DNA of 64,000 nucleotides from Amoebophrya sp. A120 (taxonomy: Eukaryota > Protista > Dinoflagellata), in contig CAJINV010000006.1 of assembly GCA_905178155.1 (NCBI GenBank), positions 3,475,573 through 3,539,572 on the forward strand, given 5' to 3'. Below, piece after piece: positions 1 to 64,000 of the stretch. Every line of letters starts with the position of its first letter. Positions within the stretch are counted from its first letter, which is position 1. The position numbers and the translations under genes are program-made. The notes under the pieces were generated by a model. That model was given only the letters and a program-made list of their open reading frames with translations, was not told where the DNA came from and made no database searches.

Positions 1-21
1 GGGACGTTTTTACGCAGAATA
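1..21. mobile_element. Introner family E, end only
   Basis: GGGACGTTTTTACGCAGAATA matches family E terminus. Confidence 0.65.
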
Positions 22-2367
22 GCGGTTCTTCAGTTTTTCCACTTCGTGCACGCGCTCGCCCAACTTGCTTCCCGTGTAGCCGCTGACGTAGCCCGACAAG
101 AGGAAAAAACCGCCGACGATGACATTTTCGTGTGTCATATGCAATACAAATTTCCCGCCCATGTACAAAATGCATCACAAATTTCACCAATTTGGAGCGT
201 AAAACTTGTCATGCTAAACTAGGATCGAAGCCAAGTTTTGTCATGCGGAGACCGCATTTGTACGTGTACGGGAAATTTGCTGTGGATATGTCAGAAACTT
301 CAGGAGCGGCAGCGAGATCTGGTTCTGCTTCTCGTGTCGTGCCGTCGCAAGTGCCGCCGGTATAAAGTGGCCGATGATGATGGGTAGAACTAGCAAAAAC
401 CTACACCCATCCAAGGAATCCAAATGCGGTTTGCTTCCCGGCAAAGGCGCGCCCCCCGGCCCCGTGGTGAGTTGGCGACTCGCAGCTCTAGTGCCAGCAG
501 CAACGGGGGTGAGGGACCGGGGAACAGTAGGAAGATTTTCTGGTTTTTGTTTCCCGGACAGAAAAGTCGTTTCGATCTGCGACTGCTCCGCAGACGACGG
601 AACCTCGACGACGGCGGGGGCAATTCCGCCGTAAATACCCTTCGACTGGAGAAATTGGATTTTGCTCTGGCGGATCGTGTATGAACTGCAAAAGTATCGT
701 ACTCGTATGAATGCATTACAAATTTTCTCAGCATGAGAAATAAAATTTGTAATGCTGATATGCCTTGACAAAGAAATTTGTAATGCAAGACGTGCATTTA
801 TACGAGTACGATACTTTATTTGCACAGCATACCGTGTCCGACCCAATCCCCACGTTGATCGCAGATTCCAAACTCGCAATCGTGCTGTTCGAATGCATTG
901 CAAAAGTATGTAGTAATTGCATCTATCGTTCGTTCGTTGTGGATCGGCTCTGCCGACCGGGTAACCCATCGCCTCGCATACAAATGACCGACATAGGCGA
1001 ACCCCGTTGCGGGACATACAAATTGGCCGTGCGGAAGGGCCCTAAGCGCTACATACATAGTTCACCCTAAGCGCCTACCACTTCGGTCGGGACTGAGTCT
1101 ACCTGGTCCTGGGCATCTATGCATTACAAATTTTGCTTTTATGGTAAATCCGCATTAGCATTACAAATTTTCTTTGTCATGCTGAGCTAATTTGTAATGC
1201 AATTTTTACAAGTAGTACGATACTTTTGCAATTCATAGTTCGAATCTGACCGTCGGAGGGTGGACGACCCCGGCGCGGGATATGACACCCTCAGAATGGA
1301 AATCCTCAAAGTGGAAATAATTTGTGATGCATGTAATGCGACACCAAAAAGTCTGTATTGCAGAGAACGTAATGGAGGCCGACTACTGTGCTTCTACGGG
1401 TTCAGAATTGGGATGCTGATTAGCATGACAGAAGGGCACCCCTTTGCCTACCTAGCATGACAGACACGTTTTGAGTGCCCGGGAAATTTGTCATGCGCCG
1501 ACTAGAAATGGTGCTCCAACTGGAGTCGTTTTTTTGCATTACAAATTTTTTTCACTTTGAGGATTTCCAACCTGAGGCTTTCATACGGGAAGCCCCAGAG
1601 GACCGGTTTGGAGTTGTTGGCCTCCATTATGTATCAAAAGTAAAAGGGTCTGGGTCTGGAAACTTGTGATGCTGCGTGGCGTCTCATGATGAGGCTACAG
1701 ATGCTGGCTCAGCATGACAAGTTTCCGAGCTCCTAGGTGTTGCCTATTCTGCATGACAAACTGCGCTTCAAAAACGGAGCTCTTGGGTAACGTGCATGAC
1801 AGATTTAAGAGTCATGCCAGACAAGCATGACAAACATGAATTCTGCCAGACCCAGACATTTTCACAGTTGATATTACCACTGTTTGTTCCTAGTTGTTCC
1901 CTGCTAATTTGATTAACCTCTCCGCCGGTTGAAGATGCATTCGAGGGGTCGTTGGAGGTGCCGCTCCCCCGCGCTGGTGTATGGAAGCGTCAGGATTGAA
2001 ATCGTCAAAGTTGGAGTAATTTGCAATGCATAAAACGGATACCAGTTGGTACCTAGTTTTCAAGTGGCGCATGACAAATTTGGGTAGAACTACCGGGATC
2101 CAGTTTGTAATGCTGTTTGGGTAAGGAAGCCGCCTTCTATCATGCTACTTTAGCACCTCTATTTCTACCCCTCAACAGGCTTACCATCTGTCTCCCTTGC
2201 CTACTCTGCTAGACCGGCTCTTTGTGGGTTGCATTTTATGCATCACAAACTATCTCATTCTCAACTTTGTCGATTTCAAACCTGACGCTTCCATATGGTG
2301 CCGTTCCATCGTACGCGCTATGGTATTCGCGAGAGCGACGCCGCAGATTCTTGTGGGTGAGCATCAT
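1..2367 (-). CDS. Acyltransferase family 3 (OafA/YrhL-like, Acyl_transf_3) membrane protein; 3' end beyond window
   Basis: Removing 6 introners (+5 nt each) gives one frame MMLTHKNL...HLDSLDGCRFLLVLPIIIGHF...VIVGGFFLLSGY; LDGxR..H and FFxLSGY are Acyl_transf_3 hallmarks. Start uncertain. Confidence 0.8.
138..288. mobile_element. Introner family A (TIR TAT..AAATTTCCCG)
   Basis: DR TGTCA. Confidence 0.9.
680..831. mobile_element. Introner family B (TIR TAT..TGCAAAAGTATCG)
   Basis: DR TCGTG/CCGTG. Confidence 0.85.
892..1237. mobile_element. Introner family B with nested insert
   Basis: DR GTTCG. Confidence 0.85.
927..1112 (-). mobile_element. 186-bp SINE-like insertion nested in introner 892-1237
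   Basis: 8-bp duplication GCATCTAT at 919-926 and 1113-1120; (AACG)3 tail at minus-strand 3' end; no TIR. Confidence 0.65.
1281..1585. mobile_element. Introner family D (TIR TATGGAAGYGTCAG-like)
   Basis: DR CGGGA. Confidence 0.9.
1632..1873. mobile_element. Introner family C (TIR TATCAA..GTCTGGGTCTGG)
   Basis: DR TTATG/TTACC, frame restored. Confidence 0.85.
1980..2295. mobile_element. Introner family D
   Basis: DR TGGTG. Confidence 0.9.
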
Positions 2368-4080
2368 TTTGGATATTACTGCACTGTAAATTTTTCAAAG
2401 ACATAAATACCACGTTGCCCCCCTTACGCCGAATGTCTTCTCCTGGGCGCCGGGAAGAATAAACTAATAATGCTACGAAAATAACTAGAACTACATCATG
2501 ATCATTTGCCAAAGGACTTGGACTTGTTGCGGCGAGATACAAAAAACACAGCGAGAGCATGATGAAAAACGAATTTATCGCCCGCCCGGAATAGACGTGG
2601 TTGGACGATGAAGCGAAAACATTTATCAGGTGGTATTTTCTTTTTTCAACGTGAAGATTATATACGAGCCCGACTTCTGACGAGTAAGTACCTCTTCCCT
2701 TGAACGATGAAACACACAATAAACACTGTATTGTCATCACCGAAGAAGTAGTTGTTTCGGAAAGGTAAAAGAACTTGTTCGCTTCAATAAATTCACAACC
2801 GAGTATTTGCATCAAGTCGACCATCAGCTACCCACCCCAATTTTTCAGAACCTCTTTGCGCAAGTCCTCAAAGAGTCGCGGAATACGAAGAAGCGAGAAG
2901 CGTACGAATCAAAAATAGCAGCACTTTATAACTTTTTCGCCCTAGATCGACGGAGGTGGCAGCTTGGTACCACCAGCAGCCCCAGGCACCAGCGAAAGAA
3001 CATCATCGACGCAGGAACTCTACTTGTACATCTTCCACCTCTTTCCCTTTCGCTTGTTCTGTAGTTTTCATCCTCCTAAGTAAACGCAGCCACCCCTGCA
3101 GGCCGCGAGCCTCATTTTCTTGGAAGTTCTTGTTGTTTCCATCGATTCATCTTGCATGCCGTGCCTCGACAAGTATGCTGCATGTAGATGTTGTACAAGT
3201 GGTGCCAAAGCATAATTCCTGTACTCAAGTGTCACAGCATAGATACGTAGTCGTGTAAAGCTGCTGCTCATCTTCGTGGGAAATAGATCACACGTGGGCA
3301 GCAAGGTGGTCGTTGTATAGATGAACCTACGTGGAAGTTGTACAGGAACTTGTTCGTTTTTTAATATGGCCTCGACGTAGTTTTTCAAGAACATGAATTT
3401 GAATTTCAATCATTGTACACGACGGACTTGTCTATATCGTAATCATACATGGGAGAAGTGAAGTGAAGTCTAATCTTCTCATCATACAGATACAACCAAC
3501 ATGGGATAAAATTAAATAAAACTAAAACTTCTCCTACAAGCACAGTGCATGATCCTCTCCTACAGGCAGGAGATGATCCACTGATTCCTCCTGCAGGCTG
3601 CAATGATTACGAAAAAAGAGCACTATGAACTACACCGCGAGAAGCGCTGCCGTTCTTTCGGGTGGCACTGTACCTGAAGTGGTTATAGTTGTACCACTTC
3701 AGGACGACGCCCTTTGGAGGCCTCGCACTTCTGGCGGGACATAATTACTTAGTACCTACAAAGCAACTTTTTTAGGCGAAGATGACGCGACAGAAAATCT
3801 CCGGCAACTAACTTTGATCGAGACGGGAAGGAGTCGGATAATTTGGCACTTACCACCGGCGGTAGTACATTTTTAGTATTCTTAACCTTATACTATACCA
3901 GATACGACTCTATAAGACCACTCCCATCTACAACTTTGTCCGAGTCATCTATTGGAAGATCTCCAAGAAGATAATTTGCCTGGTGAGCCGGGTCATCTTC
4001 CCCGAATTAAAATTATACAGGCTTATTCTTGATCGCTTTGAGATCTCGTCCGCAACATGGCGTGGCTTTGAGTTGTTCTC

Positions 4081-6649
4081 TCAGCTGTCTTTTTGTTTGT
4101 TTCCCCGTTTTGTTCCACAACATCGGACAAAGCGCCGACGTAGCCTTTCACCCAAGCCACGGTCCGCCTGGCGCGCGCGCGTTACCTTTTCCCACCCTTC
4201 TGGCGTCCAGAGAGCGTTTCCGCGTTCTACCGGTGCAATTATGGTAGGGAAAATAAACGGGGCCCACGCCCCACGGTCAAGATGGGAATTTTTTTGCAAC
4301 ACAAATCCAGAAGCTACTTCGGGAGTCACGCATGACAAGTCTCTAGCACAACTAGCTGTCGCGTGGTGCAGATTCGCAAGAAGGGCAGCCACATCTTCAA
4401 CACAGAGCCATCTGCTTATGATCCTATTTATTATACGTTTACACCATCACAAATGCCGAAACACGAATGTGTCTCATGGGCGGGATCATGCGCATTACAA
4501 ATCTTGCTGTAGATGCGAATCTCCATGACAACTCTGAGGTGCAGTAGTGGGCCTCGTTTTTCGTCAGGATACAAAAAGTTGTCGCCTCTTCATTCACCAC
4601 CCCTCCATATTCCTCGTAGGAGCAGTCGTACACTTCATAGCTTTTGTCCTCCGACGAGGTAGCTCTAGTACTACTTGGGATGTGGATACTAAACTCCGCA
4701 GCAGCTGGAGGTAGCGGCTGGTGTTTGTTGTTCCAATACCATTTGTCCCCACAAATTTCCATTACCCGTTCTCTTCCTTCAAGTTGATGCGCTTTTCGGA
4801 TAATTTCTGGTGATACGATTACCACCTCGGAAACCCATGATTGGGTTTGAAACCAGGGCCAGCGGTTCACGGGCTCGGCAGGCGTGTGGCGAAGCGTGAC
4901 GGCGACCTTGCGCAGTTCTGCATAATTACGGCCGTGGTTATCCGACGTGAGGGCAAATTTAAACTCAGCGGTGAGCTTCGGGCGGCGTTCCGCCACGTAA
5001 AAAGCGCCACTTGAAACGGGCTCGTGTCCACTGTACTCTTGAAACAGGACGGCATTATTTAAACTGCTGTCTCTGTAAACCGAGGTGCGGTAGTAGATGG
5101 CTTCCTCACGGCTCTCTAGACGAAGCGTCACCTGTCGGACAGGTGACGCTTCGTCTGGAGAGTCGTCAGGAACAGGAAGCCATCTCCAGTCCACAACGGG
5201 CTTCTTCAACTCTCCCGGTGCTAGCAACAAAGATATCCAAGAAAAAAACTCCCTTAGTGTAGGTCTAGGTGTGCTGGTGGTGTCATTGGTTTTTAATTGC
5301 ATGACAAAATTCCTCTGCATCACAGAGAAGTCCTCTTGTCATGCACAGCTAGTACGTGAAAACACGTACGAAAGCAAGACATTAATATGGCTGGTACGCA
5401 TTACAAGTGTGCCTCCTGCGTTGCATGCTTTCCACGTAATACAGACAATACACCACTACACTGCTTTTTTCTTGCATAAAAGACGCCGCGCGTTCAACGT
5501 CGGCGATCGGCGGAAAACCTTGGCGAGTTGTCTCCGCTGCGTCAGTATCAAATGTAAAAATGTCTGGGTCTGGAAGAATGCATGTTTGTCATGCTTGTCT
5601 GGCATGACTCTTAAATCTGTCATGCGCATTGCCCAAGAGACGTTTTTTTCTGTCATGCGGAGACGCAGTTTGTCATGCAGAATAGGCAACACCTACAAGC
5701 TCAGAAATTTGTCATGCTGAGCCAGCACTTGTGGCCTCCGTATGCTACGCCACTCAGCATCACAAGTTTCCAGACCCAGACATTTTTCCATTTGATAGTC
5801 AGACTCGCGGCGCCCGCCGATCGGCGGAACCGTCAGCAGCACCTCTCTCGGCGCCATCAAGTGGGACGGCGCTTGACCACCACGGCGAAGCCCACTGCTG
5901 GCGCTACCGCCCTCCTCCCTCCGTACTTCATGTCGAGGCTGGTACGCAAGCAGGCTGCGTAGAAAGTTACGCGCAAAGACGGTAACCACGCGCGACCGCT
6001 GCAGCTGGGCCACCTGGTTTGGGCCCTCAATGCTGGCCCCCAATGCGGTCCGACCCCAACCGCGACCGGCAGTGGCTAGGCTTGTCTTTTCTTCCTTGGT
6101 TAACAGAGAGCGAGGCTCTCCGTCTAGGGACCCTCCACCTAGGTGCTCGGCAGCGAAAGGTTGCTGGACCGCATTCATAGCTGATGAAGATCTTGCATCA
6201 ACCGCCCCAGCGACCGGCTCTACTTCTCTGCCGCGGGAGAGAACAGTGCTAACAAGCGGGCGCTGCTGGGCAAGGAGGTTCGCAAAATCTGCGGAATACG
6301 CGTGGTTCTTCTCAATACGTCCTTCTTCGGGAGCAACAGCACCCCCGTCGATCCGGATGGGAGCGAAGTAGTCTTCCAAGTTGGCAACTGGAAGTACAGC
6401 CTCGTCTTTGCTGGTTGTACCACGAGTAGGCGACCGTCCGGCGCCACGACTCCGTCCCGACGAGGAAGGGCTTCTACTTGGCCGCCCTCGGCCAGCACCA
6501 GAAGAGGACGACACCTGAAGTTCCAGGGCTTGGCACGTATAAACGACACTGCTCGACGTCATACTTTCCGATAAAAGAAGCAAGGCCGCCGCGGTGCTGC
6601 CGGCCAACTTCCACGACACAGACGAGGTTTTGGTAGTTTCCTTCATCAT
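4081..6649 (-). CDS. Hypothetical protein with signal-peptide-like N-terminus
   Basis: ORF-track segments 5693..6649, 4439..5323 and 4081..4392 join in frame across 3 introners; last junction has a poor DR, so C-terminus less certain. Confidence 0.6.
4240..4571. mobile_element. Introner family E (TIR TATCCTGAGTAAAAACG-like), diverged
   Basis: TIR and core motifs; poor DR. Confidence 0.75.
5234..5478. mobile_element. Introner family L (TIR TATCCAAGAAAAAA)
   Basis: DR AAAGA. Confidence 0.9.
5546..5797. mobile_element. Introner family C
   Basis: DR GTCAG. Confidence 0.9.
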
Positions 6650-8205
6650 TATTGTGCAACTTCTACTACTTTGCTAGAAGTGCTGTTTTACTTACAAATG
6701 GAAAGGAAATGTCTCCTCCTTTCTTGTCACGAATTTGCAGGTGAAGACAATGGCTTGAAAAACTTCGATATTACGGGTGGAAAAATAGTGGGTGTCAAAC
6801 GTTATAGAGCGATCTATAATCGCTATGGTCAGAGTAACAATTTTTTGTAAAGAATAACAATTCGTCTAACTAGGATCTTCTGCACAGAGGTTTTTTCGTA
6901 ACTCAAAGTTGTACTAGGTGAAAGTACGTAGAATTACAAGCTGTTGAACTGTGGGGAAGACCAACATGATTTGGCAAGTGCATGTTGTCTGTCACAACAG
7001 AATATTAGAACGATCTCGGAGGCCAGGCGGGTGCGAGTACGACATACGCCGCGCCTGCGAAATTTTTCATCAAGTCAGGATCCTGAATTTTATCCACCGA
7101 ATGTAGGTCTTGTACCGACCCCACCTTCGAGGGGGACTGCTTAGAATTGCGAGTTTTTCGTGACCAGCAGCGAGAGAGCACAAAAACAAGAAACGACCGC
7201 GGATTTTGTCATTTTGATCTTATTGGATGATCCTGTCTATAATTTTGGTCGTGATGTGGATCTGCCGACGCTTGGCACACGAATCCAAAGAACCGATATG
7301 GAAGATCTGAGTTCTTGCCTGCGACTTCTGATCAGGTTGAGCTGCTGAGGTCCTCGTGGATCTGGGCCTTCACTTATTTCTCGGGCCTGCAGATCTGAGG
7401 ATGCACATTGTTCGCGAAGATCGCTCCTCGACCTTTCTTTGCAAACTGATCGAAAAAAATAGAAAAAAAGGACCATCATCCGGAGGCAAAAGAGCACCGT
7501 CTGCGAGCGTCTCGATAGCACTGGTACAAAACCAGAAAGAACTCCTAGTGCGATTTTCTCAATTTGCGATAGCAATGCAGAGCAATACACGACCTTAGGA
7601 TCATCACGAAGTTGCGCGCCTGCGCGCAATAAAATGTGCAACTGGTGCAGCACTGCTGAAAATGAAAAACTCTGCGAAAATAAATTATGAGAAGGTGATT
7701 GATACGGATGTACTGCAAGTAAAAACTTCTCAGCATGATTTGTCATCCGATCACTCACAACGTCGTCATGATCTGTCGTCATATAAAGCGATGTTGAATG
7801 GGCTCGTTTTATTCATGTTGGTCCCTTCAGGGTGCAACTGCAATGTAAATGCTGCACCTTATCGGTAGAAAGATTAAACCCTGCTGGGCGACGAGGAGAA
7901 ACAAATCCGACCTCCTGGGCGAGGAGAAGCAAACAGTTACCGTATTTGCACTTCTGCTTTCGCGATTTGATATAAATAAACTCTGATCATGTTCATGTTG
8001 TAAAAATGTTCAAAAAATAAAGGCAGTTTTTAGTTGTTGAAGCGCAAGCGTAAAAAGTCGTGGTGGTCATTAGATTTTACTAGCTGATCTTTTAAATTTG
8101 ATGCAGCAAGGATTATCGTCTTGCCTTTAGTCTTGGTAGTCCTCTCGTCGGTTTTTGCGTGATCATCATCGCGTGTGAATACTCATAGACTCGTCGCTGT
8201 AGTCT

Positions 8206-11200
8206 TCACAATGGCCCCTCCTGCTTCTCCAGTTCCCGAATCAAATCCCAATCCGCCCAGGGCACGTACTTTATATGAAATGCAAAATAAGCATCGTACT
8301 AGTAGAAATCGCATGACAAATTCCCTCAGCATGAAAAATGGAATTTGTCATGCGGATTGAGGTTGAGAAGGAGATTTGTAATGCGTGGTTGCGATAATGA
8401 CTACGAGTGCGATACTTTTATTGCACAGGATACTTTATCTTCCCCGACACAGCGTCCTTCTTCATGTGGTTTTTCCGGAACACGCACCTTTGCATATCCT
8501 GCGTAAAAACGTCCCCGCGGCCCCATAGTCAAGATGATGGGGAATCTGCTAGACAAATCCGCCAGATTTTGTTGTTTCGCATGACAGGTTTGCGATTGCC
8601 CCCACAGTCGCACCCGGTTTAGCTAGTTCAGCAGCATCACAGATCTAGAATATCATGCTGATTCTAGCATCACAAATTATCCCCGAACACGACTAGAAAA
8701 TGCTTCTCATGTGGCTCCGCATGAGAAACTTTTTTGCAGGCATGCAGATTTGCATTGCAACTCTGGGGTTGGGACGTTTTTGCCCAGGATATTCCAACAT
8801 GTTGAAGTCTTCGTCCCACATTTTTTTCCACATGTAGAGCCAGAACACATGCTATGAAATGCAGGAGCATCGTACCAGTATAAATCGCATGACAAATGAT
8901 CTCCTCAGCATGAGAGAGAGAGATAGAATTTGTAATGCGGATTCAACTTGAGAAAGAAATTTGTGATGCATGAATGCGATTAGTACGACTACGATACTTT
9001 TGCACAGGATACATGCGACTCCCTGACGATCTCCATTGCCTGCTTGCATTGGTGGTTCAGCCTGTCCATGTCAATTGGCTCAGGTTTGCTGGAGCTGCGG
9101 CATTCTTCGTCTCCGTCGGTTTTCAGCCACAAGTCGTACTCTTCCTTGTCGTACATATGCTTCAAAACTTTCGAACTGCTGGCTCGGTAGTTGTCCTGGT
9201 CGTAGAATTCTTCTTCAAATTCGCACTTGATTACATATGAAACGCAGATAGGTCTGGGTCTGGAAGCTGCTTGCCGGGTTTGTCATGCATATTTTGCATG
9301 TCCACTGATTATCTGTGATGTATGTATGCCCTAGAAGCATCACAGACGTCTAGAACTCTTCCTGTTCCTGATCCTGATATGCCTATTCCGCATTAGAAAT
9401 GCCCTACACATTGCAATTTTTTTCGAATCCGGAGACAGCATTACAAGTTGCAACCTTCCAGAGGACCCAGACATATTTGCAATGCGTATTCCAGCTTCCT
9501 TCTCAAATTCTTCGATTCCCACCGAGTCGAAGTTTTTCAGGTGCCAGTGCTTGTACGTTTCGAACTCATTCAGACACTTCTCCACGAAAGATTCAGTGTA
9601 TGAAAGTGGAAATAAAGAACTCCTCGTCGTTGTTAGTTGTCCCCCTCATTTCCAAGGCATGATAACCACTCGTGCTATAATGCTTGCAGCTGCCCGTGCC
9701 CCCGCGTCCTAGAACTGCGCTGCATCTAAGAAGTTGCAGCACGACTACGGTAATAAACTGCGGCGCTAGCATCTAGAAGCACTTCTTCTCGTCCTCAGAA
9801 GTAAAAACTACACGAGGATCATTGTGCCTGTTAGTGCTTCATCTCTTGCTGGTGTTCATGCACAACTTGAATCGAGATGATAGTGAGCGGGGAGGGGGCG
9901 AGGTCGAGGGGTGACACAAGTAGAGCAGTTCTCTTTGTGGTCCACTTTCATACAATGCTGCTATCGTGATGCTCGGGATCGCAGACGTGGTGCCAAGGCT
10001 TCAAAGTCCCCGAATAGTGAACCACGGCGATGCGAAGGCGGCCACTGAGATTTCATTTTAATATTGTGTAGCTGAATGTAAAAATTACGAGCATTTTTGA
10101 ACTCGCAGTGGCACTCGATGAAATTGGAATCATAATTCGAAAGACGAGAAAGCTTGGCTTCATAAGGCTGCAACCAATAACATACATAGAAGAAAAACTC
10201 GCCCTGTTGAAAAGAAAAAAAATTATCAATCTTACATCGGATCCAAGTATCGCTTGCGTTCCGCACAATTAAGCGGGTTCATGTTGTGAAAAATCTGGTG
10301 CTATCAACTGTAAAAATGTCTGGGTCTGGAAGATTCTGACACTTGTCATGCACGGTTTGCATGAGACATGATGTCTGTGATGCATGCCCTAGCATCACAG
10401 GTTTTTTGCGGGATTCTTGATGCCTATTCCGCATGATAAATGCCCTCTCCGCGTAGCAAAAATTAGAATCCTTTTGCTGCTCATGCAACACAAATCTTTT
10501 AGACATCCATATGCAGCATGACAAGTTGCATTCTTCCAGACCCAGACATTTTTACATTTGATAGGTGCAGCTGAAAATTGAACCGAACAGAAATGTTGTG
10601 CCAGGGGTAGTCGGCAAAGTAGCGCGACAAGAAATCCTGCTCCGGCGCGGTGGTGTTGATGTGCTCCGGGTGTCGGGTCGTTTTCACAACCGTACACACG
10701 TCCTGAAACCGCTTCGCGTCCGGCTGAAACAGCATGTATCCAAGAAAAAAACGTGTGTAGGTGTAGCTTTGTGCTGCGGAAGATGCTAGACGCTTACGTT
10801 TGTCATGCTGGACATGCATCAGAGGCTCTTTTCGCACTAGTTTTCACTGATACTAGCTACGCATGACAGGTTTTCTCTGTCATGCAGAGCAAACTTGTGA
10901 TGCTGTTCCTCCAAGAAAGTTAAACTTACACAGTTTTTTACTTGCATAGCATGACCCCGGCGTTGATCCCCGTTCCCTGGAAAAACGCCTCCGGCCACTG
11001 TTCATTTTCCTTCGGTGCTTCGGGGCCGGACAGACCCTTCCGGAAGAAGTTGGTATGCAGCGCAAATTATATGTCTGGGTCTGGAAGAGTGCAAGAACTT
11101 GTGATGCTGCATTTGGATCCTAGAAAAATTTGCGTTGCATGAGCAGCAATGGGTAATGAGAGTCTTGCTAGGTGGAGGGGGCATTTGTAATGCGGAATAG

Positions 11201-53492: not shown

Positions 53493-54689
53493 GATAGGCG
53501 TTTAAAAATAGTTTGGCTAATATTAAAATTCTGTACAAGGCGAAGTAGCTGTAGCTTCCTTTAGCCGACTATCAAAAAGTCTGTCTTCCCGGAGGAGCAA
53601 GAACGTCAATCGACATAGTTATAGGTCTCGTGTGCAGGTAGAAGAATCGATGTAATATACTCACATCACAAGAACCCGCCCAACAGCACCAAATGCATGA
53701 CGAGCGTCATGCTTCATGATGTCGTAGTCTGCGATTGTAAACAAAGACTGAATATAGTGCTTGCGTGAAAATAAGAAAGGATTCGTCTGGGTAGAATCTG
53801 CCGTGGCTCAAGAAAACAAGCGTTATTTGACATAGCGATAACTTTTGTTCGGCACCAGCAGGGGTTTTCAAAAATTATAGATATAGTTATACTCAAAATT
53901 TTCAGATCGTCATTTTCCCGTTGGTTGCGCGGTCAAAATATTGGGAGTACTACTTAATTTCAGACCCAGCTCGTCCAGCAGCAGCAGCACTGGCACTGCT
54001 AGTCCGTGCTATCTCATGATCCACAGTAGACCTTCAAAAAGTAAGAGCCACACACTCGATCGCGGGAGGCCTGTTGCCAACAAGAACCTCACGTCAACAC
54101 ATCTGACAGAAATAAAACGAGTCAAGCAAAACTTTAGCAGACAGGGTACTATGAGAGAATGAAGCGAGTAGAACGGAGAAAAACTTGTTTGAATACACGA
54201 CAAGCAAACTGGATTTGTTCACCGGGACTCATGGGGCAAACATCATGGGTCAAAAATTTCAATGGGGTCCTGTTGGAATGACAAAGTCGTCCCAGGAGGT
54301 TGTTCTTCTTGTTGTATTTACAGTGATAATTTTCTTTGACATTCATCAGAAACAAAGCTCCAGATTGTAGTTTCGCGCGAAGTCTGTGTGGCGGTATCCT
54401 CCATCTCGTGTCGCGGTCACCCGCTGAAGATAAAAACAGGTTGCAGTTCAAGAACCGATAATCTAGGTTTACGTTTTTGAAACAAAAAAGCCGACATTGT
54501 CTTCGTTCACTTGTTTCCACCGAGAAGTAAAGAAAACAACCGATTAGGTCGATATTATATTTTTCAAACCTATATATTCTCAAACACGACCGAAACTTCA
54601 TCTTCAAATAGTAGGACCACTAGTACACTAGGAGTCGGCACCAGCAAAACAAAACTGAATTTCGTCGGATGTCTAAATATTTATACTCG

Positions 54690-57600
54690 CTATAGTTGAG
54701 ACGGAATCCCCGGAATGTCAAAGTTTCGCACCCGCATATCATCCGCGGCGATATCAGACTATGCATTGCAAAAGTATCGCACTCGTATAAATGCATTACA
54801 AATTTCCTCAGCATGAGAAATAAGATTTGTAATGCTGATTTGCCTTAACAAAAAGACTTGTAATGCACGACTACAATACGAGTGCGATACTTTTGCACAG
54901 GATACAGACTCGTAGCTGTAATTCGTTTCCAACAGCGGAAACGGGTACTGATTGAACCTGATCTTTATCAAAGAAAAAAAGTTCGTCACGATCACTCATG
55001 CGCATTCTTGCAATACAAAATTGTTTATCATGCGTAAAAATGCGTCACAGCCAAACTTTATTAGGGATTTCCCTAGTGTTTCTGCAATACAAGGAAAGTT
55101 TGTGATGCTGAGAAAATTTGTAATGCAAAACCTGCAAGTTAGTGACTGTGACAAACTTTTTTCTCTCCATAATCTTCCCCACCGTGGTAATATGCACTGC
55201 AAAAGTATCGTACTCGTCGTACTAAATAGCAGCCATCCATTACAAATCTACTAATCAAGTGCAATCCGCATTACAAATTACATTTGTAATGCTGAGCCAA
55301 TTTGTAATGCAATTTATACTAGTACGATAAATTTCCAGTTCATAGGTAATATCCGGATGCGACTTCGAGCCCAAGTTCGTTACCGTTAAGGTCCACGCCT
55401 GCGCCGTCGTGTTCGCGACATGATTATCAACTGCAAATATGCCTGGGACTGGGAGAATGCGAGATCTGTCATGCAGGTTTTACCTGCCCCAGACCGTCTG
55501 GCATGCGAGCTCTAGCATCACAGATTTAGATTTTGTTGAGCAGCTACCCCAATGCCTTCTAATCAGCATGACAAATCCCCTCTCTCGGAAACAAGAAGCG
55601 GGGCCTTTTGCTGGCCATGCATGACAGATGTTGTCATGCTGTAGACCTCGCATCACAAATTCGAATCCTTCCAGACCCAGGCATATTTGCATTTGATAAT
55701 GATTCGTAGTCGCCCCCGCACCGTTGGTCGAGGACAGAGAGCCGCTGGAATATGCCGTTGAAAAGCATCGCACTCGTACAAATCGGTATTGCAAAATCAT
55801 GCAACACAAATCTCATTCGAATAGGTGAATCTGCATCACAAATTTCTTTTCTCATGCTAGAGAAGTTTGTCATGCGATTTTTACACGTCTATGTCTACGA
55901 CGCTTTTCTTGTAGCGGATATGGAAACCCCGCCGCCGATGTCGCACCAATCCGGCACGAAAAAGGGGTGCTTCCCGGTCAGGGGTTCGGCGTCGTGGCGG
56001 AGAAAAGTGCTGTTCCCCAAATCGTAAACCGCGTCCCACTTGATTTCTCCCGTCAAGTCGTTTTGCAGAGTGACTTTGATCTCGCCCAACGGGATTCCAA
56101 ACCTGATCTGGGGGTGGTGTATGGAACTCTACTCAGTTGTTACACTCTCAAATGTTTGCATGAATTTGTAATGCAAGAATAGCAAATAAAGTCAAAGGGA
56201 GAGCAGGGTTGCGCCTCTAGCATTACAAACTCCACACAGATTTAGATGCTGTTTAGCCCTTGATGGGGTGGAATTTGTCATGCAAAACGCAAAACGGCTT
56301 GATCCTGGGGTTGCTATATGGTAATTTTGCATCACAACCTCATGCAACAGTTGAGAATGTAACGTTTGAGCACGCCATATGGTGCCACCAGAACTTTTGC
56401 TGGAAATCGTCTCCAGCATGGCAGTATGCATTGCAAAAGTATCGTACTAGTACAACTTGCATCACAAATTTTTTCAAGAAGAAAAAATGGAACTTGTAAT
56501 GCTATATTTGTGATGCATGTTAGCAATTGCTACGAGTACGATACTTTTGCACAGGATAGGCAGCCGAAGCGCCCGTTGAGGTTGAACAAGTCGGTGAACT
56601 GGATTAACGGAGAGCGATCCATAATCATGAACTTCTGGCCCTGGTCTAAAGCGAAGTTGTGGTGCTTGATCCAGTATCAAATGCAAAAGTGTCTGGGCTT
56701 CCTGGAAGTCATGCAGATTTTGCATGACCTATGAGGTCTGTGATGCATGCCCTAGCATCCGAGATTCTCTGAGGGCTTTCTAATGCTCATACCGCATGAG
56801 AAATCAATGTTTTGCTTCTCCGCGTAGCACAAATTGCATCTCCTTTGCTGTTCATGCAATACAGATTTCATGTAGATTCCAAAGGTAGCATCACAAGTTG
56901 CAATCAGCCAGACCCAGACATATTTGCAATGCATATCCAGTGTCGGGGGTTTTGAATCGGAGGGAAGAAGGACTCAATCTTTTCCGGCGTCATATCCACA
57001 GTAAATTTCCCGTACACGTACAAAATGCATGACAAATTCCGCTAACTTGCAGTGTACAACTTGTCATGCTGGACTAGGATCGAAGGCAAGTTTTGTCATG
57101 CAGAGACTGCATTTGTACGTGTACGGGAAATTTACTGTGGATACGTCATCTGCTCCTTCACCATGGTCGCCATCGCAGCAGAGGTCGTTGGGCCCATAAT
57201 CGACCCCGCAACGTTCGTATGCATTACAAAAGTATCGCACTAATCAAAAATGCATCACAAATTTTTTCCAAGGAAAAAATGGAATTTGTAATGCTGATTT
57301 ACCTAAAAAGGGACATTTGTCATGCATGATAGCAACAATTGGTACGAGTACTACGATACTTTTGCACATGATACTTCGCGCCCTGTTTTATGAAGTTCAG
57401 TGGCCCTTTCAACACCTTCGCCACCACGGTGCCGAGCGCTAAATTCGCGCGCAAGGCGGTGCCGAGAATTTCGGCGAGAAAGGTATGAGACTACACAACC
57501 CCCCCTCCCCCTCATTTGTAATGTATAATACAAAATCCAAACTGTGCTTCTTGGCACTGTTTGCATGACAAACTCCGGAAGCCTAAACAGCACGACACTC

Positions 57601-58512
57601 CTGTGGAAATTTGTCGTACAAAACCGGCATTCTTGCTGACCCTTGTATTGCCGTTCATGCTATACAAATGAGGGGGAGGGGGAGTTGTGCACTCTCATAA
57701 AAAGGCATGGCATTGGTGAAGCTGGACAGCATTCCGCCGACGTCAAAGAATTGGGTGGCTTGTAAAAGCTCCTTCTGCTCTTTCGTGAGGTTTTTCCGGT
57801 CTTTCGGGAGGGTGGACAGGTGGAAAAGGAGGTTTTTATTTTGCAGGTTCTTTGTCGTGCTGCTGCTGCTGTTGTCGTCGTCAGGATTGGCAGCTTCTGG
57901 TGCTGCTGCGCTTTTACCAATGGTAGGAGATATTGATGAAGATGATCTTGAGGCGCCAGCACGATCAGGCATCATGTTTTTGTGCTGCGTCTTCAATCTT
58001 TTCACACTCGGATGCGCGAACAACGTGTTCGGGTCCAGTTTACTGTGATGGGACGTCTTGATGGTGATGGAGGTCGAGGCAATAGTGCTCCCGCGATTCG
58101 CTGGTGCGTTGTGGTCGTTTTGCGGCGTCCTCTCCGAAGGGGCAGTGACGAAACTAGAGGCCGCAGCGCCAGCATCGGTAGTTGTTTTCTCTTGTACTTG
58201 TTTTACAGCATGAGCAGGCATTTTCGTGCGTGGTTGTGAGGAGCCAATTGCAGCATGATGGGAAGCACTAGGAGGTTCCGTCGTCGCTGAGAGGTCCTCT
58301 GGGAGAAGCAAAGCCTTGTCCTTGAATGATGTGGCGATTTTCCGCGGCAGCTGATCCCGAACAGAGAACTGGAACTCTAGTAAAACCTGATGGCTGGTGA
58401 CGCTGGTTGCCGTACTCCTGTTCTGCTTGCTTCTCGAAAAAGAAACTTCTGGGTCCATCTCCAGATGCTGGTCTCTGAACATCAGATGAAAGCGCTCGGC
58501 AAGAAAACCCAT
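54690..58512 (-). CDS. Hypothetical protein
   Basis: Frame continuous across 11 introners (MPFLAEILGT...KFWWHHPQIRFG...DIPGIPSQL*); start uncertain. Confidence 0.7.
54760..54904. mobile_element. Introner family B
   Basis: DR CAGAC. Confidence 0.9.
54966..55171. mobile_element. Introner family I
   Basis: DR ATCTT. Confidence 0.9.
55191..55344. mobile_element. Introner family B
   Basis: DR GGTAA. Confidence 0.9.
55425..55698. mobile_element. Introner family C
   Basis: DR ATGAT. Confidence 0.9.
55751..55920. mobile_element. Introner family B, diverged
   Basis: DR TGGAA. Confidence 0.9.
56120..56379. mobile_element. Introner family G
   Basis: DR TGGTG. Confidence 0.9.
56425..56558. mobile_element. 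Introner family B
   Basis: DR GGCAG. Confidence 0.9.
56675..56935. mobile_element. Introner family C
   Basis: DR TCCAG. Confidence 0.9.
56993..57143. mobile_element. Introner family A
   Basis: DR CGTCA. Confidence 0.9.
57218..57373. mobile_element. Introner family B
   Basis: DR GTTCG/CTTCG. Confidence 0.9.
57484..57699. mobile_element. Introner family J
   Basis: DR AAAGG/AAAAG. Confidence 0.9.
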
Positions 58513-59315
58513 GTTGGCTTGATGTTTTTCTTTGGTGTAGTTGAGAAGCTTTAGTTGTTGAAGAAAATTATATACGGAAAGCTGCACAAAAGACGAATTC
58601 AATTGGCCAACAGGAGGTACGTAGATTGAAATTGAAAAAGCACCATCGCGAGGACAACAACATAGATGAAGACGGTCGATAGAATTGCACTTCTTGCCCT
58701 CTCTGTGCGATCGACGTGAGGTCCTGTCTCTCATCTCTTGTTCGACAAATCAAACCTAACAAGTCCCTGACACAACGAATTATTCGAGGTCGCGACAACT
58801 TCTGGGCCTCGTCCAGAAAAGAACATGAGCATGACGAGGACTCGTCCAGAAAAGAACAGCGCAGTCACTGCGCTGCCTACTTTCAGTCCCAAGCCAAGGT
58901 GCCGGTGCCCCCTTGGCGGCTTGCACGACTTTTGCAGTGCCTGATTATCGCGAAGTTGCTTATCAATCTCAATTTACAACGAGCGTGCGCCTGCCCGCCA
59001 CAGACGGGCTGCATCCTCGGTAGGACTAGAACAAGATTGCTTTGCGTTTAAGTCGATGTAAAAGTACAAGACGGCCATCTTGCGCGTTGAATGATGATGA
59101 AAGAAGGCTGTTTAATATGCCCAGCACCACCGTGCTCGTTCTGCCCTTCTCAAAGCAAGTTCAAGAGACTTCTATGTTATTTTCGAAAGCGCTAACGCGG
59201 GCAACATCCTCCACATCCCTCATAACCGGGTCGCAGAAGCAATGCTCCGGTTCCGCTCCCGCAGTTTTTGTCACCTCACGTTTGTTCTAGGAAGATGTTG
59301 GTCTTGGTGTTCTTG

Positions 59316-59573
59316 TATCAAATGTAAAAGTGTCTGGGTCTGGGAACTTGTGATGCTGGGTGGCGCCTCATGATGAGGCTACAAATGCTGGCTCAGCATG
59401 ACTTGACAAGTTTCTGAGCTCCTAGGTGTTGCCTATTCTGCATGACAGGCTGCGCTTCTGCATCACAGAAAAGCGGAGCTCTTGGGTAACGTGCATGACA
59501 GTTTTAAGAGTCAGGCCAGACAAGCATGGCAAATCTTGCATTCTTCCAGACCCAGACATTTTTGCATTTGATA
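59316..59573. mobile_element. Introner family C (apparently in 3' UTR)
   Basis: DR TCTTG. Confidence 0.9.
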
Positions 59574-59698
59574 TCTTGTCGACCGTGCTGCTCCTGCCTT
59601 CTGCAACTGCTCGTATTTGACTGAGTACAAGGAAGTATTTGTTTTTGCGAACAACGGCGGTAAGATCTACTAGCCGAAAGTAGAAGACGAGTCGGACA

Positions 59699-62256
59699 CT
59701 ATATCCTCCCGGGCGAAGAAGTACTGCCACCACCGCCGCCGATTGGCGAAGAAAGTATTGGTCTCCCCTCCGCATTATCAAATGCAAATATGCCTGGGTC
59801 TGGAAAATTGTGATGCAAGTCTCTGAAAAATGGTGGGCGCACTACAATATGCAGCCAAGCATGACAAGTTTTTGCACTGCCATGTGTTTCGTTTTTCGCA
59901 TGACAAGCTGCGTTTTTGCATGACAGGCACCAAGCGCAGGCCCCGATCCTGCTTATGCATCACAGATCTAAGAGTCATTCCAGACAAGCATGACAAGTCC
60001 TACATTCATCTTCAAGCCCCAGACATTTTTGCAATGCGTACGCATCTCTTTCCCCCGCATCAGAATCCGCCGCTCCGGTTTTCGAGTTTAAACTTCCCGT
60101 TTCATCTTGATCTGCGTCCCCGTATATCCTCTCCCCCGCGTAGTAATATCGAAAGGAAAAATCCCGTCTCCCCATATCAAAACGAAGGCTCTGATGCTGG
60201 ATCTGCGTACACAAGTCAAATCTGTCTTGCCCTGGAGAGGAAGGCAGGCCCATACGGAGCTTAGCGAGAGAGGATGTGGGCTAGGTACTAACTTGGCATG
60301 AAAAAAACGTCTGTGCTGTAGCCCCAACAGCATCACAAGCCGCGTGAGCAATGCGGCGGAGCTGCTTGTGGAGTTGCCGTCTTGCAAAACAGATGCGATT
60401 TGTGGCCACAAGTCAGCAACATAAATTTTCAGAAGCGTGCCTTGTCGATCGTATGGAGACGGGAGATTTTTCCTCACAATAAGTAGAACGCGCCCATCAC
60501 AGCTGCGTACATGCCAATGAAGAGGAACGAAAACAGCACCTCGGAGTAGTGACCGGAGTCCGGGTGGACTTGTGAGCCCGTCCAGAGCGACATGACCGCC
60601 GCGATGATAAACTGGGGCTGTTTCAGCGCAAACATGACCTGTGCGAGGATACCGTGCCACTTCACCACCCCTCGTTTTGGCAAGGACGTGTACTTGAGAA
60701 CCCCACCGGCATCAAGTGCAAATGTGTCTGGGTCTGGAAGGATGCAACTTGTCATGCTAAGTCTGGGTAGTGCAATTATTTGTGTTGCGTGATTACCAAG
60801 AAGTGTCCACTTCTGAACAAGCTTAGCGGCAGTGTCTCATGCAGGATAGACATGATGGAGAGTTCGCAGAACCTGTCGTGCTAGGTCCTGCATTGCAGAC
60901 CTCATGGGGCATGGAAAATATGCATGGCAAGTCTGCATTCTTCCAGACCCAGACATTTTTGCATTTGATAACCGGCGATCTGGATCAACCAGCAGATTAG
61001 CAGGGAATAACCCAGGTAGACGTGGACCTGATAGTAAACAAACACAAAGGTAGTTTTTGATGAATTTGTTGAAATCATCTTTGGATTCATTTTTGTGGCA
61101 AAGAGATGAAACCATCATGGCTGTCTTACTGCAGTAAGGAGTTCGCTCAACATGATGAGAAAATCCAAAATGGTTGCACGTTCTGCAACACGAACACAGT
61201 AGACGCAGCTCTACTATACCTGATGCCACCACGGTGAGTCTTTTGCGAAGTGGCTGGCCCTATCAACTGTAAAAATGTCTGGGTCTGGAAGAATACGCGA
61301 TTTGTAATGCAGGTTTTCCATGCCCCATGAGGTCTGGAATGCAGGGCCTAGCATGACAGATTCTGCGAGAGCTCTATCATGCCTATCCTGCATGAGAAAC
61401 TCCTTTTCACCTTGGTCAAAAATGCACGGCTTTTGGTACTCATGCAACACAGATTGTTGCATGATCCAGATTTAGCATGACAAACATGCATTCTTCCAGA
61501 CCCAGACATTTTTACATTTGATAGGCCCCTTTCTCCGCGTGCTGTAGGTACATGAACAACCATCCGAGAAATATCCCGAGCAAAAACGTCCCCACCCCAG
61601 AGTCAAGATCGGGACCCCGCAACACAAATCGAGAAGTTTTGGCAGTCAAGCATGAGAAGTTCGTCTCTGTATTGTAGTGCAGGTTAGCAACGACAGCCGC
61701 AACGCAAATCCATCTACTCATCCTGTTTAGAGCATTACAAAGTCCAAAACACGATTGGAAACGCCTCTCATGGGGATGCGCATTACAAATCTTCCTGTGA
61801 CTGGAAATCTGCATGACAACTCTGGGGTGGGTACGTTTTTACTCAGGATAAGAAAGAAAAACAGCCCGGCCAAGCTCATCAGTATCACGTGATTCCTGGA
61901 CTCGTTCCCCTGCTCCAGTATTCCGAGGCCCATCAAACCTAACCCGATGGAGTTGCAGACAGGATGCAGCATAAATTTCCACACATTGCTGTACTTCTGA
62001 ATAGCCACGGCGGAGACGGCGAGGGCAACGGAGATGGCGAGATATGCAAGGCAAAAGCATCGACATCGTACTAGTATAAATCGCATGACAAATTTGCTCA
62101 GCATGAGATATGAAATTTGTCATGCTGTTTTACCTTGGAAAGGAGATTTGTAATGCATGACTGCAATTACTACAACGAGTACGATACTTTTGCACTGGAT
62201 ACGAGAGTCCCGCCTGCCATGTACCAGCGGGAGGTACGGGGAATCTTCACCGGCAT
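59699..62256 (-). CDS. Cytochrome b561 domain protein
   Basis: FMLHPVCNSIG, SRNHVILMSLA, WHQVHVYLGY, VKWHGILAQ: four spaced His in TM helices; 6 introners + 1 GT-AG intron; 3' end may extend if another intron exists. Confidence 0.75.
59776..60040. mobile_element. Introner family C
   Basis: DR CGCAT. Confidence 0.9.
60147..60481. mobile_element. Introner family F
   Basis: DR AGTAA/AGTAG. Confidence 0.9.
60710..60970. mobile_element. Introner family C
   Basis: DR ACCGG. Confidence 0.9.
61028..61219 (-). other. Canonical GT-AG intron
   Basis: GTATAG...TATCAG; join WWHQ|VHVYLG. Confidence 0.8.
61261..61523. mobile_element. Introner family C
   Basis: DR GGCCC. Confidence 0.9.
61572..61850. 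mobile_element. Introner family E
   Basis: DR AGAAA. Confidence 0.9.
62043..62201. mobile_element. Introner family B
   Basis: DR CGAGA. Confidence 0.9.
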
Positions 62257-63376
62257 GGTTTCTGGTTGGTAGTTAAATAATACGCAGGTCTGCTCGCAGG
62301 TATTCAAGATTTTACTTAGACAGAAAGCGTACTACTACAACACTTTGTGCAGCTGAGAGAGACAACTACAATCTCAGCCAGTAGGTCACCAACATCGTCA
62401 CTGTCTTCATATTCACCCAGCACCCAACATCAATATGTGTCGCCGTTGGCAAAAAGAAGAAGAAACTGCGAAAGTAGTAGGTGATATTGATTGATAACAG
62501 GGAAACAAAACACAAGGGACCTGTCGTGTCGGAATGTTAAGGCAACGTCGAGAGAAGATCGATGAAAAACGGACGAAGACCGATGCCGGATAGCATTTCT
62601 TCACGCTTACCGAACCTCCGAAAGATGAGGACGGAACTGCGGCTGTCGGTTGTGCTCTCTTTCAAAAGTGGCGCTCGTGCGACGTTGTCAACAATCGCAA
62701 ACGAAGATCTTCCGAGTAATAGTTGTTCCTGGTTCGTTACAACTTCAAAAACCGAAAACAGCAACGAAAGGACGTGGTAGCTGCCAATCGCTAAACGAAA
62801 CCGACACGAGATTCATGAGCAGCTTCTCTCTCGTCTAGTATTATATCGCTAGTACTTGCTGCTGCTGCAGCGCGGCCGAAATCCTGATAATTAAGTACAC
62901 AAATGCGAGCACACGTCAGCTGCTTCGCCAGACATGCGTTTTTCATCTCTTCTTCTGCAGTAGCACTGTGACGACAGATTAGATACAAGGCTTCACTGGT
63001 GTTCAGTTTTTCTGCGCTGGGTACTACGACCAGGGGGGTGTGGTCCGAAATTTTTTACAAGTGGTTGATATTGAACTTTGAGCTTCACAAATGCTAATCA
63101 GCAGTTTTTTCTTCAAATCGAGGCTGATTAGAAAATCAATTTTCTGGCAACGTTGGTACCAGTTTGATCATCAAATAAACATGAAGCGACGTAACCTCGC
63201 TTAGGTTTCGTGCTCGTTGTAACTTCAATGAAAATAAGTAAATGTGTTCTACTGAACAATTTGATTATTGAATTTTGGAGAAAGTCGATAGAAGCCCAAT
63301 TTCTGAGTTTTCAACTTGCTTTTCTTGTACGGTAATCCAGAAAAGAAAAACCGCCGTCGATCCCTTGTTCGATTCC

Positions 63377-64000
63377 TCACCTCGGCGGCAGCAAGTATTC
63401 ATCCGCCAACAGGTATGGAAGCGTCAGGTTTGAAATCGACAAAGTTGAAATACAAGAAATAACTTGTAATGCATAAAATCGATACCAGTTGGAAGCCCAA
63501 TTTCTAAGCGGTGCATCACAAATTTTGGCTGTCCCTAAATCCAGTTTGTCATGCTGCTTAGGCAAAGAAGACTGTCTTTCTAATGCTACTTTACCAGCTC
63601 GAACAGGCTTACAATCGGCGTCACTTGCCTGCTCTGCAACACACGCACCTCGCGTCATGCATTCTATGCATTACGTATTATTTCAAGAACTTTGACGATT
63701 TCGATCCTGACACACCCATAACAGGTCATCCTCCTCGTCCACGATGTCTTCATGCCTTACCGTTTATCACACAGAAAAAAGCAGGCAGGTCACATTTGTA
63801 ATGCAAAAATAAATACACAAAAAAATCTGTATCGCATATCCGAAACAGCGTGCGGCGGGGCCTCCCATGAAAGACTTTTCTGTGTATTTATTTTTGCATC
63901 ACAAATGTGCCCTGCCTGCTTTTTTCTCTGGGATACCGTTGGACCCCTCCCGTCATCCTCGTCGTCATTGCCACCACCTGCATCCGCTACCCCCTCCTCC
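63377..64000 (-). CDS. 3' end of hypothetical protein (acidic tail); 5' beyond window
   Basis: ...GPTVRHEDIVDEEDDLLADEYLLPPR* in frame across 2 introners. Confidence 0.55.
63414..63720. mobile_element. Introner family D
   Basis: DR ACAGG. Confidence 0.9.
63765..63935. mobile_element. Introner, M-like with ~60-bp TIR
   Basis: DR CCGTT. Confidence 0.9.

What the first reader, a model, noticed from the sequence alone, without database searches (positions are those of the whole stretch)
1..63935. About 100 MITE-like non-GT-AG introns obeying one rule: TAT...ATA ends, 5-bp DR, excise element + 5 nt
Seen: at least 13 TIR families with different TIR interiors and family-specific lengths (A ~150-165, B ~135-210, C ~240-285, D ~305-316, F ~320-335 bp). 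Nearly all begin TAT and end ATA, have a 5-bp DR of arbitrary sequence, and show no consistent GT/AG at the junctions. Removing element + one DR rebuilds recognisable motifs (GT8 FTK|LH and GINAGVM|LFQP, TPR, b561). Known: introner elements with inverted and direct repeats and non-canonical splice sites are described in Amoebophrya. Inference: one transposase class and one non-standard removal machinery serve all families; whether removal is RNA splicing or precise DNA excision cannot be told from DNA.
Basis: partly seen in the sequence, partly recalled or inferred. Interest (0 to 1): 0.85.

Follow-up and report, generated by a model that had tools for sequence, protein, structure and literature searches.

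The report
Amoebophrya transposon introns share hidden rule
About 100 transposon-like inserts, of a kind already published for the parasitic dinoflagellate Amoebophrya, interrupt the genes of this stretch and are missing from likely RNA contigs in every case checked; they are likely cut at one fixed offset from their TAT...ATA ends rather than at GT-AG, which would give a first testable splice code for them.

Summary
Confirmed, and mostly known. The window is Amoebophrya sp. A120; the elements are the introner elements of Farhat et al. 2021 (PMC7789003).

I count 98, covering a third of the window. Of 97 catalogued, 71 have a perfect 5-bp duplication and 85 have exact TAT...ATA ends. Likely-RNA contigs lack element+5 nt at 28 of 28 elements that could be checked; a DNA-like run keeps them. 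Removal therefore looks like RNA splicing.

Three things were not found in print (four searches):
(1) Imperfect duplications bracket one cut register, N|TAT...ATA-NNNN|. The lower bound rests on one RNA junction plus two indirect cases.
(2) The ends are conserved differently by transcript direction (378 elements): T at +2 is favoured, and A at -7.
(3) All 22 clusters carry a phased internal motif, GCAT(G/T/C)ACAA, in either orientation.

Best reading: non-autonomous transposons of one unidentified 5-bp-stagger transposase, likely removed by a relaxed spliceosome that reads +2U/+3A and measures from a terminal A. No transposase was found. Earlier, unchecked notes of this scan report similar hairpin-ended introns in other dinoflagellate genomes.

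The parts
138..2295 (-). 6 elements: 138-288, 680-831, 892-1237, 1281-1585, 1632-1873, 1980-2295
   Evidence: sequence and frame only
4240..5797 (-). 3 elements: 4240-4571 (degenerate DR), 5234-5478, 5546-5797
8274..9952 (-). 5 elements in the 3' part of the GT8-like gene: 8274-8432, 8495-8791, 8853-9011, 9236-9488, 9599-9952
   Evidence: DNA-like run X1 holds 9599-9952 in one contig
10302..17022 (-). 15 elements in the GT8-like gene: 10302-10563, 10737-10948, 11054-11325, 11359-11679, 11829-12113, 12305-12457, 13793-13941, 14321-14582, 14638-14877, 14993-15143, 15199-15469, 15500-15748, 15904-16053, 16514-16681, 16755-17022
   Evidence: 1326-codon open frame after removal; the nine from 13793 on are absent from X3 record 9, skipped lengths summing exactly to element+5
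20605..23611 (-). 9 elements: 20605-20763, 20804-20921, 20985-21205, 21487-21650, 21824-21998, 22109-22274, 22327-22470, 22843-23154, 23449-23611
   Evidence: first three absent from X3 record 10 (513 nt = sum of element+5); 20985-21205 gives offset 0-1
25990..26969 (-). 2 elements: 25990-26241, 26708-26969
29946..35743 (-). 16 elements in one gene: 29946-30096, 30169-30480, 30632-30798, 30901-31207, 31502-31780, 31946-32084, 32390-32498, 32542-32868, 33001-33219, 33353-33560, 33706-33981, 34336-34497, 34550-34759, 34974-35228, 35275-35525, 35595-35743
   Evidence: 14 listed joints equal element+5; the last two follow from record coordinates
30165..30481 (-). register-informative intron (element 30169-30480; DR copies AGCGT/AACGT): at most 1 nt of the upstream DR is in the intron
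   Evidence: joint 30162-30480, both=2, in all four runs
32386..32499 (-). register-informative intron (element 32390-32498; CATGT/CGTGT): offset 0-1; carries the internal motif only antisense to the mRNA
35271..35526 (-). register-informative intron (element 35275-35525; CGATT/TGTTT): offset 1-2, the only RNA-based lower bound
   Evidence: inferred from side=42 in the neighbouring joint row in X3 and X5; the joint row itself was not displayed
32210..32341 (-). canonical GT-AG intron (132 nt, in frame) in the same gene; starts GTAT; two one-mismatch copies of the internal motif
   Evidence: joint in X3, X5, X6
36818..38863 (-). 5 elements (the last three in the TPR gene): 36818-37051, 37390-37607, 38116-38273, 38328-38484, 38554-38863
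   Evidence: TPR by Pfam
40725..42399 (-). 4 elements: 40725-40875, 41090-41241, 41725-41891, 42177-42399
   Evidence: homologue P0002 has Pro at the 41725 junction
47772..53391 (-). 13 elements: 47772-48034, 48109-48267, 48480-48630, 48680-48931, 49020-49281, 49331-49505, 50172-50321, 50365-50624, 50677-50885, 51220-51369, 51431-51758, 51993-52137, 53128-53391
   Evidence: 1036-codon open frame after removal
54760..57699 (-). 11 elements: 54760-54904, 54966-55171, 55191-55344, 55425-55698, 55751-55920, 56120-56379, 56425-56558, 56675-56935, 56993-57143, 57218-57373, 57484-57699
   Evidence: removal gives the NCBI A120 protein P0001 (546 aa) exactly for offsets 1-5, and one wrong residue for offset 0
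59316..62201 (-). 7 elements: 59316-59573, 59776-60040, 60147-60481, 60710-60970, 61261-61523, 61572-61850, 62043-62201
63414..63935 (-). 2 elements: 63414-63720, 63765-63935
138..63935 (.). internal motif GCAT(G/T/C)ACAA in either orientation, 210 exact copies inside elements, preferred spacings 16-18, 31-34 and 48-49 bp

Best explanation
These are the known Amoebophrya A120 introner elements: short inverted-repeat inserts with TAT...ATA ends and a 5-bp duplication, likely spread by one unidentified transposase and likely removed from the RNA by a relaxed spliceosome at one fixed offset.

Shown: the anatomy; insertion in both orientations; and absence of exactly element+5 nt from likely-RNA contigs while a DNA-like run keeps the elements.

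Inferred (1): insertion by a DDE transposase with a 5-bp stagger. It would bind TAT-SNNNTGYAAAA ends and the phased GCATNACAA sites, of which some ends hold a variant copy.

Inferred (2): the intron is N-TAT...ATA-NNNN. The 5' cut lies 1 nt before the element and the 3' cut 4 nt after it, so one full copy of the duplication is rebuilt and the protein is unchanged.

Inferred (3): TAT supplies U+2 and A+3, as in GUA of a normal donor, without needing G+1. The first A of the terminal ATA sits at -7 and would serve as branch point or ruler in place of AG. Because the ends mirror each other, either orientation is spliced.
For: Identity: 100% match to an A120 protein; 11 removals give the 546-aa protein.

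Removal: 14 of 14 displayed element joints equal element+5. 14 more fit by exact record arithmetic (105, 384, 68 and 94 nt gaps, plus one direct adjacency). X1 contigs span whole elements, e.g. 9456-10326, 12088-13822, 20740-21550. Both orientations of the two largest families are removed.

Register: offset at most 1 at 30169, 32390 and 20985; at most 2, 3, 4, 4 at four more; 1-2 at 35275; at least 1 at 57218 (P0001 Asn306) and at 41725 (Pro in P0002). Offset 1 is the only value that fits all ten.

Direction-dependent conservation: outer T changed in 2 of 378 mRNA-5' ends against 11 of 378 mirrored 3' ends (p=0.02). Third base changed in 13 against 2 of 378 (p=0.007).

Common origin: perfect 5-bp DR in 262 of 347 elements from another assembly. 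Motif 210 exact copies against a mean of 2.2 in shuffles, in 22 of 22 clusters and 330 of 347 elements.

Context: Farhat reports a nearly complete spliceosome without detectable U1.
Against: The lower bound on the offset is thin. One RNA junction gives it, read from a 'side' value and not from a displayed row; an assembly error at one base would undo it. P0001 is an annotation whose aligner may have preferred the GT that offset 1 creates there. P0002 reads Val-Pro, which fits offsets 4-5 slightly better than 1-3.

All RNA contigs are from one sample, are labelled 'RNA?' by guess, and show only the majority form.

The outer-T asymmetry is not significant in the second assembly alone (p=0.29); the third-base asymmetry is (p=0.04). 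The second base shows none when pooled (2 against 3 of 378).

The bases around -7 do not match a U2 branch consensus (position -9 is G46/T35/C16), and 7 nt is a very short branch distance. G is not enriched at +1 (24 of 97).

No lariat, spliceosome or transposase evidence was obtained. Published splice-site tallies are symmetric (gt/at about as common as ag/ac) and do not discriminate offset 1 from offset 4.
Confidence: 0.6

Rival explanations
1. RNA-level removal by a non-spliceosomal, hairpin-guided nuclease and ligase, as proposed for euglenid nonconventional introns. The terminal stem would set the cuts with 1-nt and 4-nt overhangs.
For: Ends pair in the predicted fold of 96 of 97 elements; one example folds at z=-6.25. 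Euglena uses unequal spacers from a paired motif (PMC12501133, abstract and Discussion). No G+1 or AG is needed.
Against: No sign of selection on RNA pairing: G-U against A-C mismatches 100 vs 92 (p=0.61; isolated mismatches 77 vs 55, p=0.07). The two ends do not covary within families (p=0.84, 0.25). There is no strand bias in folding energy, and position 4 pairs in only 49 of 97.
Confidence: 0.27
2. RNA splicing with a loose or variable cut position inside the duplication; the apparent single register is a small-sample effect.
For: Only ten junctions are informative. Farhat's Fig. 3 legend calls splice sites variable relative to the hairpin. P0002 hints at offsets 4-5.
Against: All seven RNA-based upper bounds keep the upstream copy at the mismatched positions. 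Terminal conservation differs by transcript direction.
Confidence: 0.1
3. Precise DNA excision, like ciliate internal eliminated sequences, at an unsampled life stage, so that transcripts come from element-free DNA.
For: Transposon-like ends and a motif that works in either orientation suit a DNA-binding protein. Contigs drop rare variants, and X1 may be the assembly's own source.
Against: DNA-like contigs keep the elements unbroken. End conservation follows transcript direction. An ordinary GT-AG intron is spliced in the same transcript.
Confidence: 0.03

Closest known systems
Introner elements / non-canonical introns of Amoebophrya sp. A120 (Farhat et al. 2021, PMC7789003; abstract, passages, Results part 3, Discussion section 16, supplement parts 2-3 as text; figures not visible)
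   Same: Same organism; inverted repeats starting TAT with an A-run after seven variable bases; short DRs over the junction; RNA-supported non-GT-AG removal; many families.
   Different: The paper gives DRs of 3-5 nt, variable splice positions and no clear signature. Here the duplication is uniformly 5 bp, one register fits, and a shared internal motif is present, which the text I read does not mention. [quoted passage not shown]
A120 introner families in Gozashti et al. 2025 (PMC12130899; passages and 21 of 58 A120 rows of supplementary file 8)
   Same: TIR DNA-transposon introners of 106-340 bp and longer; some rows give a 5-bp TSD.
   Different: Automated TSD calls range 2-5 bp and the splice mechanism differs per family. 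No common rule appears in the rows seen. Family 38, with integrase-like homology, is a possible mobiliser, not tested here.
Integrase-like DDE transposons: IS481EU, IS3EU/GingerRoot, Ginger2 (PMC10045372, passages)
   Same: IS481EU ends TNT..AYA and IS3EU/GingerRoot ends TA..TA both admit TAT..ATA; Ginger2 makes 4-5 bp TSDs.
   Different: IS481EU TSDs are mostly 4 or about 15 bp, IS3EU/GingerRoot 6 bp. No transposase was found here.
Euglenid nonconventional introns (PMC12501133, abstract and Discussion)
   Same: MITE-like origin, paired ends, cuts at fixed unequal spacers from a terminal motif.
   Different: Euglena needs N3-CDG...CH'G-N5-6; these elements use TAT/ATA and show no pairing selection.
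Micromonas/Aureococcus introners and Fritillaria non-canonical introns (PMC11282704, passages; Huff 2016 not held)
   Same: MITE-derived introns with TSDs; a spliceosome adapted to odd ends in Fritillaria.
   Different: Those carry or co-opt near-canonical or specific dinucleotides; here neither G+1 nor the last two bases are constrained.

Membership tests
Amoebophrya A120 introner elements | Lies in the A120 genome | tested here: met
   exon query 100% identical to an NCBI A120 protein; whole protein rebuilt
Amoebophrya A120 introner elements | Inverted repeat starting TAT with As at positions 11-13 | tested here: met
   A in 80-90 of 97 at positions 11-13 on both ends
Amoebophrya A120 introner elements | 3-5 nt direct repeat over the junction | tested here: met
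   5 bp; 71 of 97 perfect
Amoebophrya A120 introner elements | Removed from transcripts at non-GT-AG sites | tested here: met
   28 of 28 elements that could be checked; runs labelled RNA by guess
MITE | Short, non-coding, TIR plus TSD, multi-copy, both orientations | tested here: met
MITE | Cognate autonomous element with transposase | tested here: inconclusive
   none in the window or 490 kb of loci; a 415-aa ORF inside one long copy has no Pfam hit; no whole genome held
IS3EU/GingerRoot | TA..TA ends with 6-bp TSD | tested here: not met
   ends fit, but 6-bp flank identity is 0 of 97
IS481EU / Ginger2 | Transposase sequence of the clan | not testable with these tools
   no transposase sequence available; only ends and TSD length are compatible
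Canonical U2 intron | GT/GC...AG ends | tested here: not met
   possible in any register for 3 of 97
Canonical U2 intron | Lariat formation through U2/U6 | not testable with these tools
   needs debranching or lariat reads
Euglenid nonconventional intron | CDG at +4..6 paired with CH'G at the 3' end | tested here: not met
   +4 is T in 92 of 97; no pairing selection
Ciliate-type eliminated sequence | Absent from somatic DNA | tested here: not met
   DNA-like contigs keep the elements; rare or stage-specific loss is not excluded

The most novel reading that the evidence does not exclude
A120 splices tens of thousands of transposon-derived introns by a single undescribed code with neither G+1 nor AG. 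The spliceosome reads N-U-A at the 5' end, takes the A of the terminal AUA at -7 as branch point and cuts a fixed 7 nt on. A DNA-binding protein on phased GCATNACAA arrays marks the introns during transcription in place of the missing U1, which would explain the motif in canonical introns too.
Probability: 0.3. Interest if true: 0.85.

Novelty: already known. Interest (0 to 1): 0.5.

Why it matters
How Amoebophrya removes the more than 60% of its introns that lack GT-AG has been open since 2021, and the paper reported no clear splice signature. A fixed register with +2U/+3A and -7A makes that testable with existing RNA-seq and one lariat experiment. It would also correct intron annotation, where aligners shift junctions inside the duplication. 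It explains why insertion is harmless: either orientation is spliced and the protein is restored exactly. The shared motif is a bait for finding the missing transposase or intron-marking protein.

Tried and rejected
No whole genome is held, so all counts are from the window or from 135 loci.

No listed holder run is on record as RNA. Raw RNA runs X9 and X10 did not cover the unique sequence, so there is no read-level splicing rate or strand.

One search's joint table was swamped by repeat-derived DNA joints (15 of 1652 shown), so element-free DNA alleles could not be sought directly.

Two of three homologue searches found nothing.

Internal motif as a sense-strand branch point: rejected. It has no fixed distance to the 3' end, 9 of 97 elements lack a sense copy, and three of those nine are removed in contigs.

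A codon-likelihood test of the offset on 49 imperfect-DR elements nominally favoured offsets 2-3 over 1 by about 5 log units. One stop codon in a wrongly chosen frame was found behind it. I did not rerun the test and treat it as uninformative.

Published splice-site tables first looked like support for offset 1 but are symmetric, so they were not counted.

No G enrichment at +1 and no AG drift among mutated duplications.

Rfam: 0 hits. Viral contigs: 0 hits for a family end motif. No locus was orthologous to the window, so there was no empty-site comparison.
Full report
Identity and prior work. An exon from 57700-58512 matches, at 100%, a 546-aa NCBI protein of Amoebophrya sp. A120. Removing 11 elements plus 5 nt each reproduces it. 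Farhat et al. 2021 (PMC7789003) describe in this strain RNA-supported non-canonical introns with inverted repeats starting TAT, 3-5 nt direct repeats, many families and no detectable U1 snRNA (figures not visible, so logos there may show more than the text). The elements themselves are therefore known.

Observation. A scan blind to direct repeats found 89 candidates against 2-3 in controls. 62 of 89 had identical 5-bp flanks; lengths 3, 4 and 6-10 gave 0-1. After dropping 6 and adding 14 the set is 97, and one degenerate element found later makes 98, a third of the window. They form 11 multi-copy clusters and 11 singletons; both large families occur in both orientations. The duplicated sequence has no base preference. 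Removal of element+5 restores minus-strand frames (72 of 97 against 32-34). In 135 loci of another assembly, 262 of 347 distinct elements have a perfect 5-bp duplication.

RNA or DNA. Contigs of runs guessed to be RNA skip the elements. In one gene 14 of 14 displayed element joints equal element+5, two more follow from record coordinates, and one ordinary GT-AG intron is also spliced. In one search two contigs skip 9 and 3 elements, with lengths that add up exactly. That is 28 of 28 elements that could be checked, out of 98. A run that covers intergenic DNA evenly keeps whole elements inside single contigs. All RNA contigs come from one sample, and the DNA-like run may be the assembly's source. 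Stage-specific DNA excision is thus unlikely but not formally excluded.

Where the cut falls. Perfect duplications hide the cut; imperfect ones reveal it. Let the offset be the number of upstream-duplication bases inside the intron. RNA contigs give at most 1 (30169, 32390, 20985), at most 2, 3, 4, 4 (30901, 31946, 30632, 31502) and 1-2 (35275, read from the side value 42 of the neighbouring row in two runs). The annotated protein needs at least 1 at 57218, and a homologue's proline suggests at least 1 at 41725, although its valine would fit 4-5. Only offset 1 fits all ten: intron = N-TAT...ATA-NNNN. The lower bound is the weak side: one RNA junction and two indirect cases.

What that register implies. 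It puts T at +2 and A at +3 in 97 of 97 window elements, with +1 and the last four bases random. The confirmed canonical intron starts GTAT. The ends are not conserved symmetrically. Pooling the window with 281 strand-called elements of 347 from the loci, the outer T varies in 2 of 378 mRNA-5' ends but 11 of 378 mirrored 3' ends. The third base varies in 13 against 2. So +2 U and the A at -7 are what seems protected. In the loci alone only the second effect is significant. A direction-dependent constraint points to an RNA-level reader. I found no selection for RNA pairing, which weighs against a purely hairpin-guided nuclease, although the ends do pair in predicted folds. I therefore favour a relaxed spliceosome (inference, about 0.6). 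Against it, the -7 context is not a U2 consensus and no lariat data exist.

Shared internal motif. GCAT(G/T/C)ACAA occurs 219 times, 210 of them inside elements, against about 2 in shuffles, and in all 22 clusters. Spacings cluster at 16-18, 31-34 and 48-49 bp, also with one representative per cluster (14 of 58 gaps at 30-35). 28 element ends hold a one-mismatch copy starting at base 4. It occurs in either orientation, and elements with only antisense copies are still removed, so it likely acts on DNA. The simplest role is a subterminal transposase site, which supports one mobiliser for all families. It also appears in the one confirmed canonical intron and in 5 of 7 other regions with putative canonical introns (my gene models, unconfirmed), so an intron-marking role is open.

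Mobiliser. No autonomous element was found in the window or the loci. TAT..ATA ends with a 5-bp stagger are compatible with the integrase-like clan, and Gozashti et al. report an integrase-like TIR family in A120. This is a lead only.

Novelty. Searches returned no paper stating the fixed register, the direction-dependent conservation or the motif. Subscription papers such as Roy et al. 2023 were not searchable, 37 of 58 A120 rows and two files of the Gozashti supplement were not seen, and Farhat's figures were not visible. Verdict: known elements with a sharper and testable rule; interest 0.5.

Noticed in passing
window, about 20.5 kb outside my gene spans, e.g. 42500-47500, 17700-20500, 27600-29600: 97 of 98 elements lie inside gene spans, which hold only about half of the non-element DNA (spans were drawn after seeing the elements). 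The GC-rich intergenic tracts have none, suggesting insertion or retention specific to gene bodies.
   Followed up: partly
window 42600-47500: 5-kb GC-rich (60-67%) tract with its own long inverted repeats (44922-45128) and mirrored segments; no elements and no Rfam hit.
   Followed up: no
L068 476-2934: A family-C element with intact ends and a 5-bp duplication carries about 2.2 kb of extra DNA with a 415-aa ORF lacking any Pfam hit; possibly a nested mobile element. Other long copies: L043 (972 bp), L027 (631 bp), L039 (1031 bp, nested copies).
   Followed up: partly
window 15666-15748, run X9: About 120 raw RNA reads of a related strain match a family-C end at 90-95% and run on into a different flank, so an element copy at another locus is present in those reads.
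   Followed up: no
window 32210-32341: The canonical intron is 132 nt and has no stop in frame, so it reads through as 44 extra residues in a DNA-only gene model.
   Followed up: yes
window 892-1237: 346-bp member of the 150-bp family with an unrelated internal stretch.
   Followed up: no
window 18676-19012: Three to four copies of a 23-27 bp repeat in inverted and direct arrangement in intergenic DNA, unrelated to the elements.
   Followed up: no
window 40259-40261: A single stop codon separates a 503-codon and a 166-codon open frame in the same phase; it may be a true end, a hidden intron or read-through.
   Followed up: no
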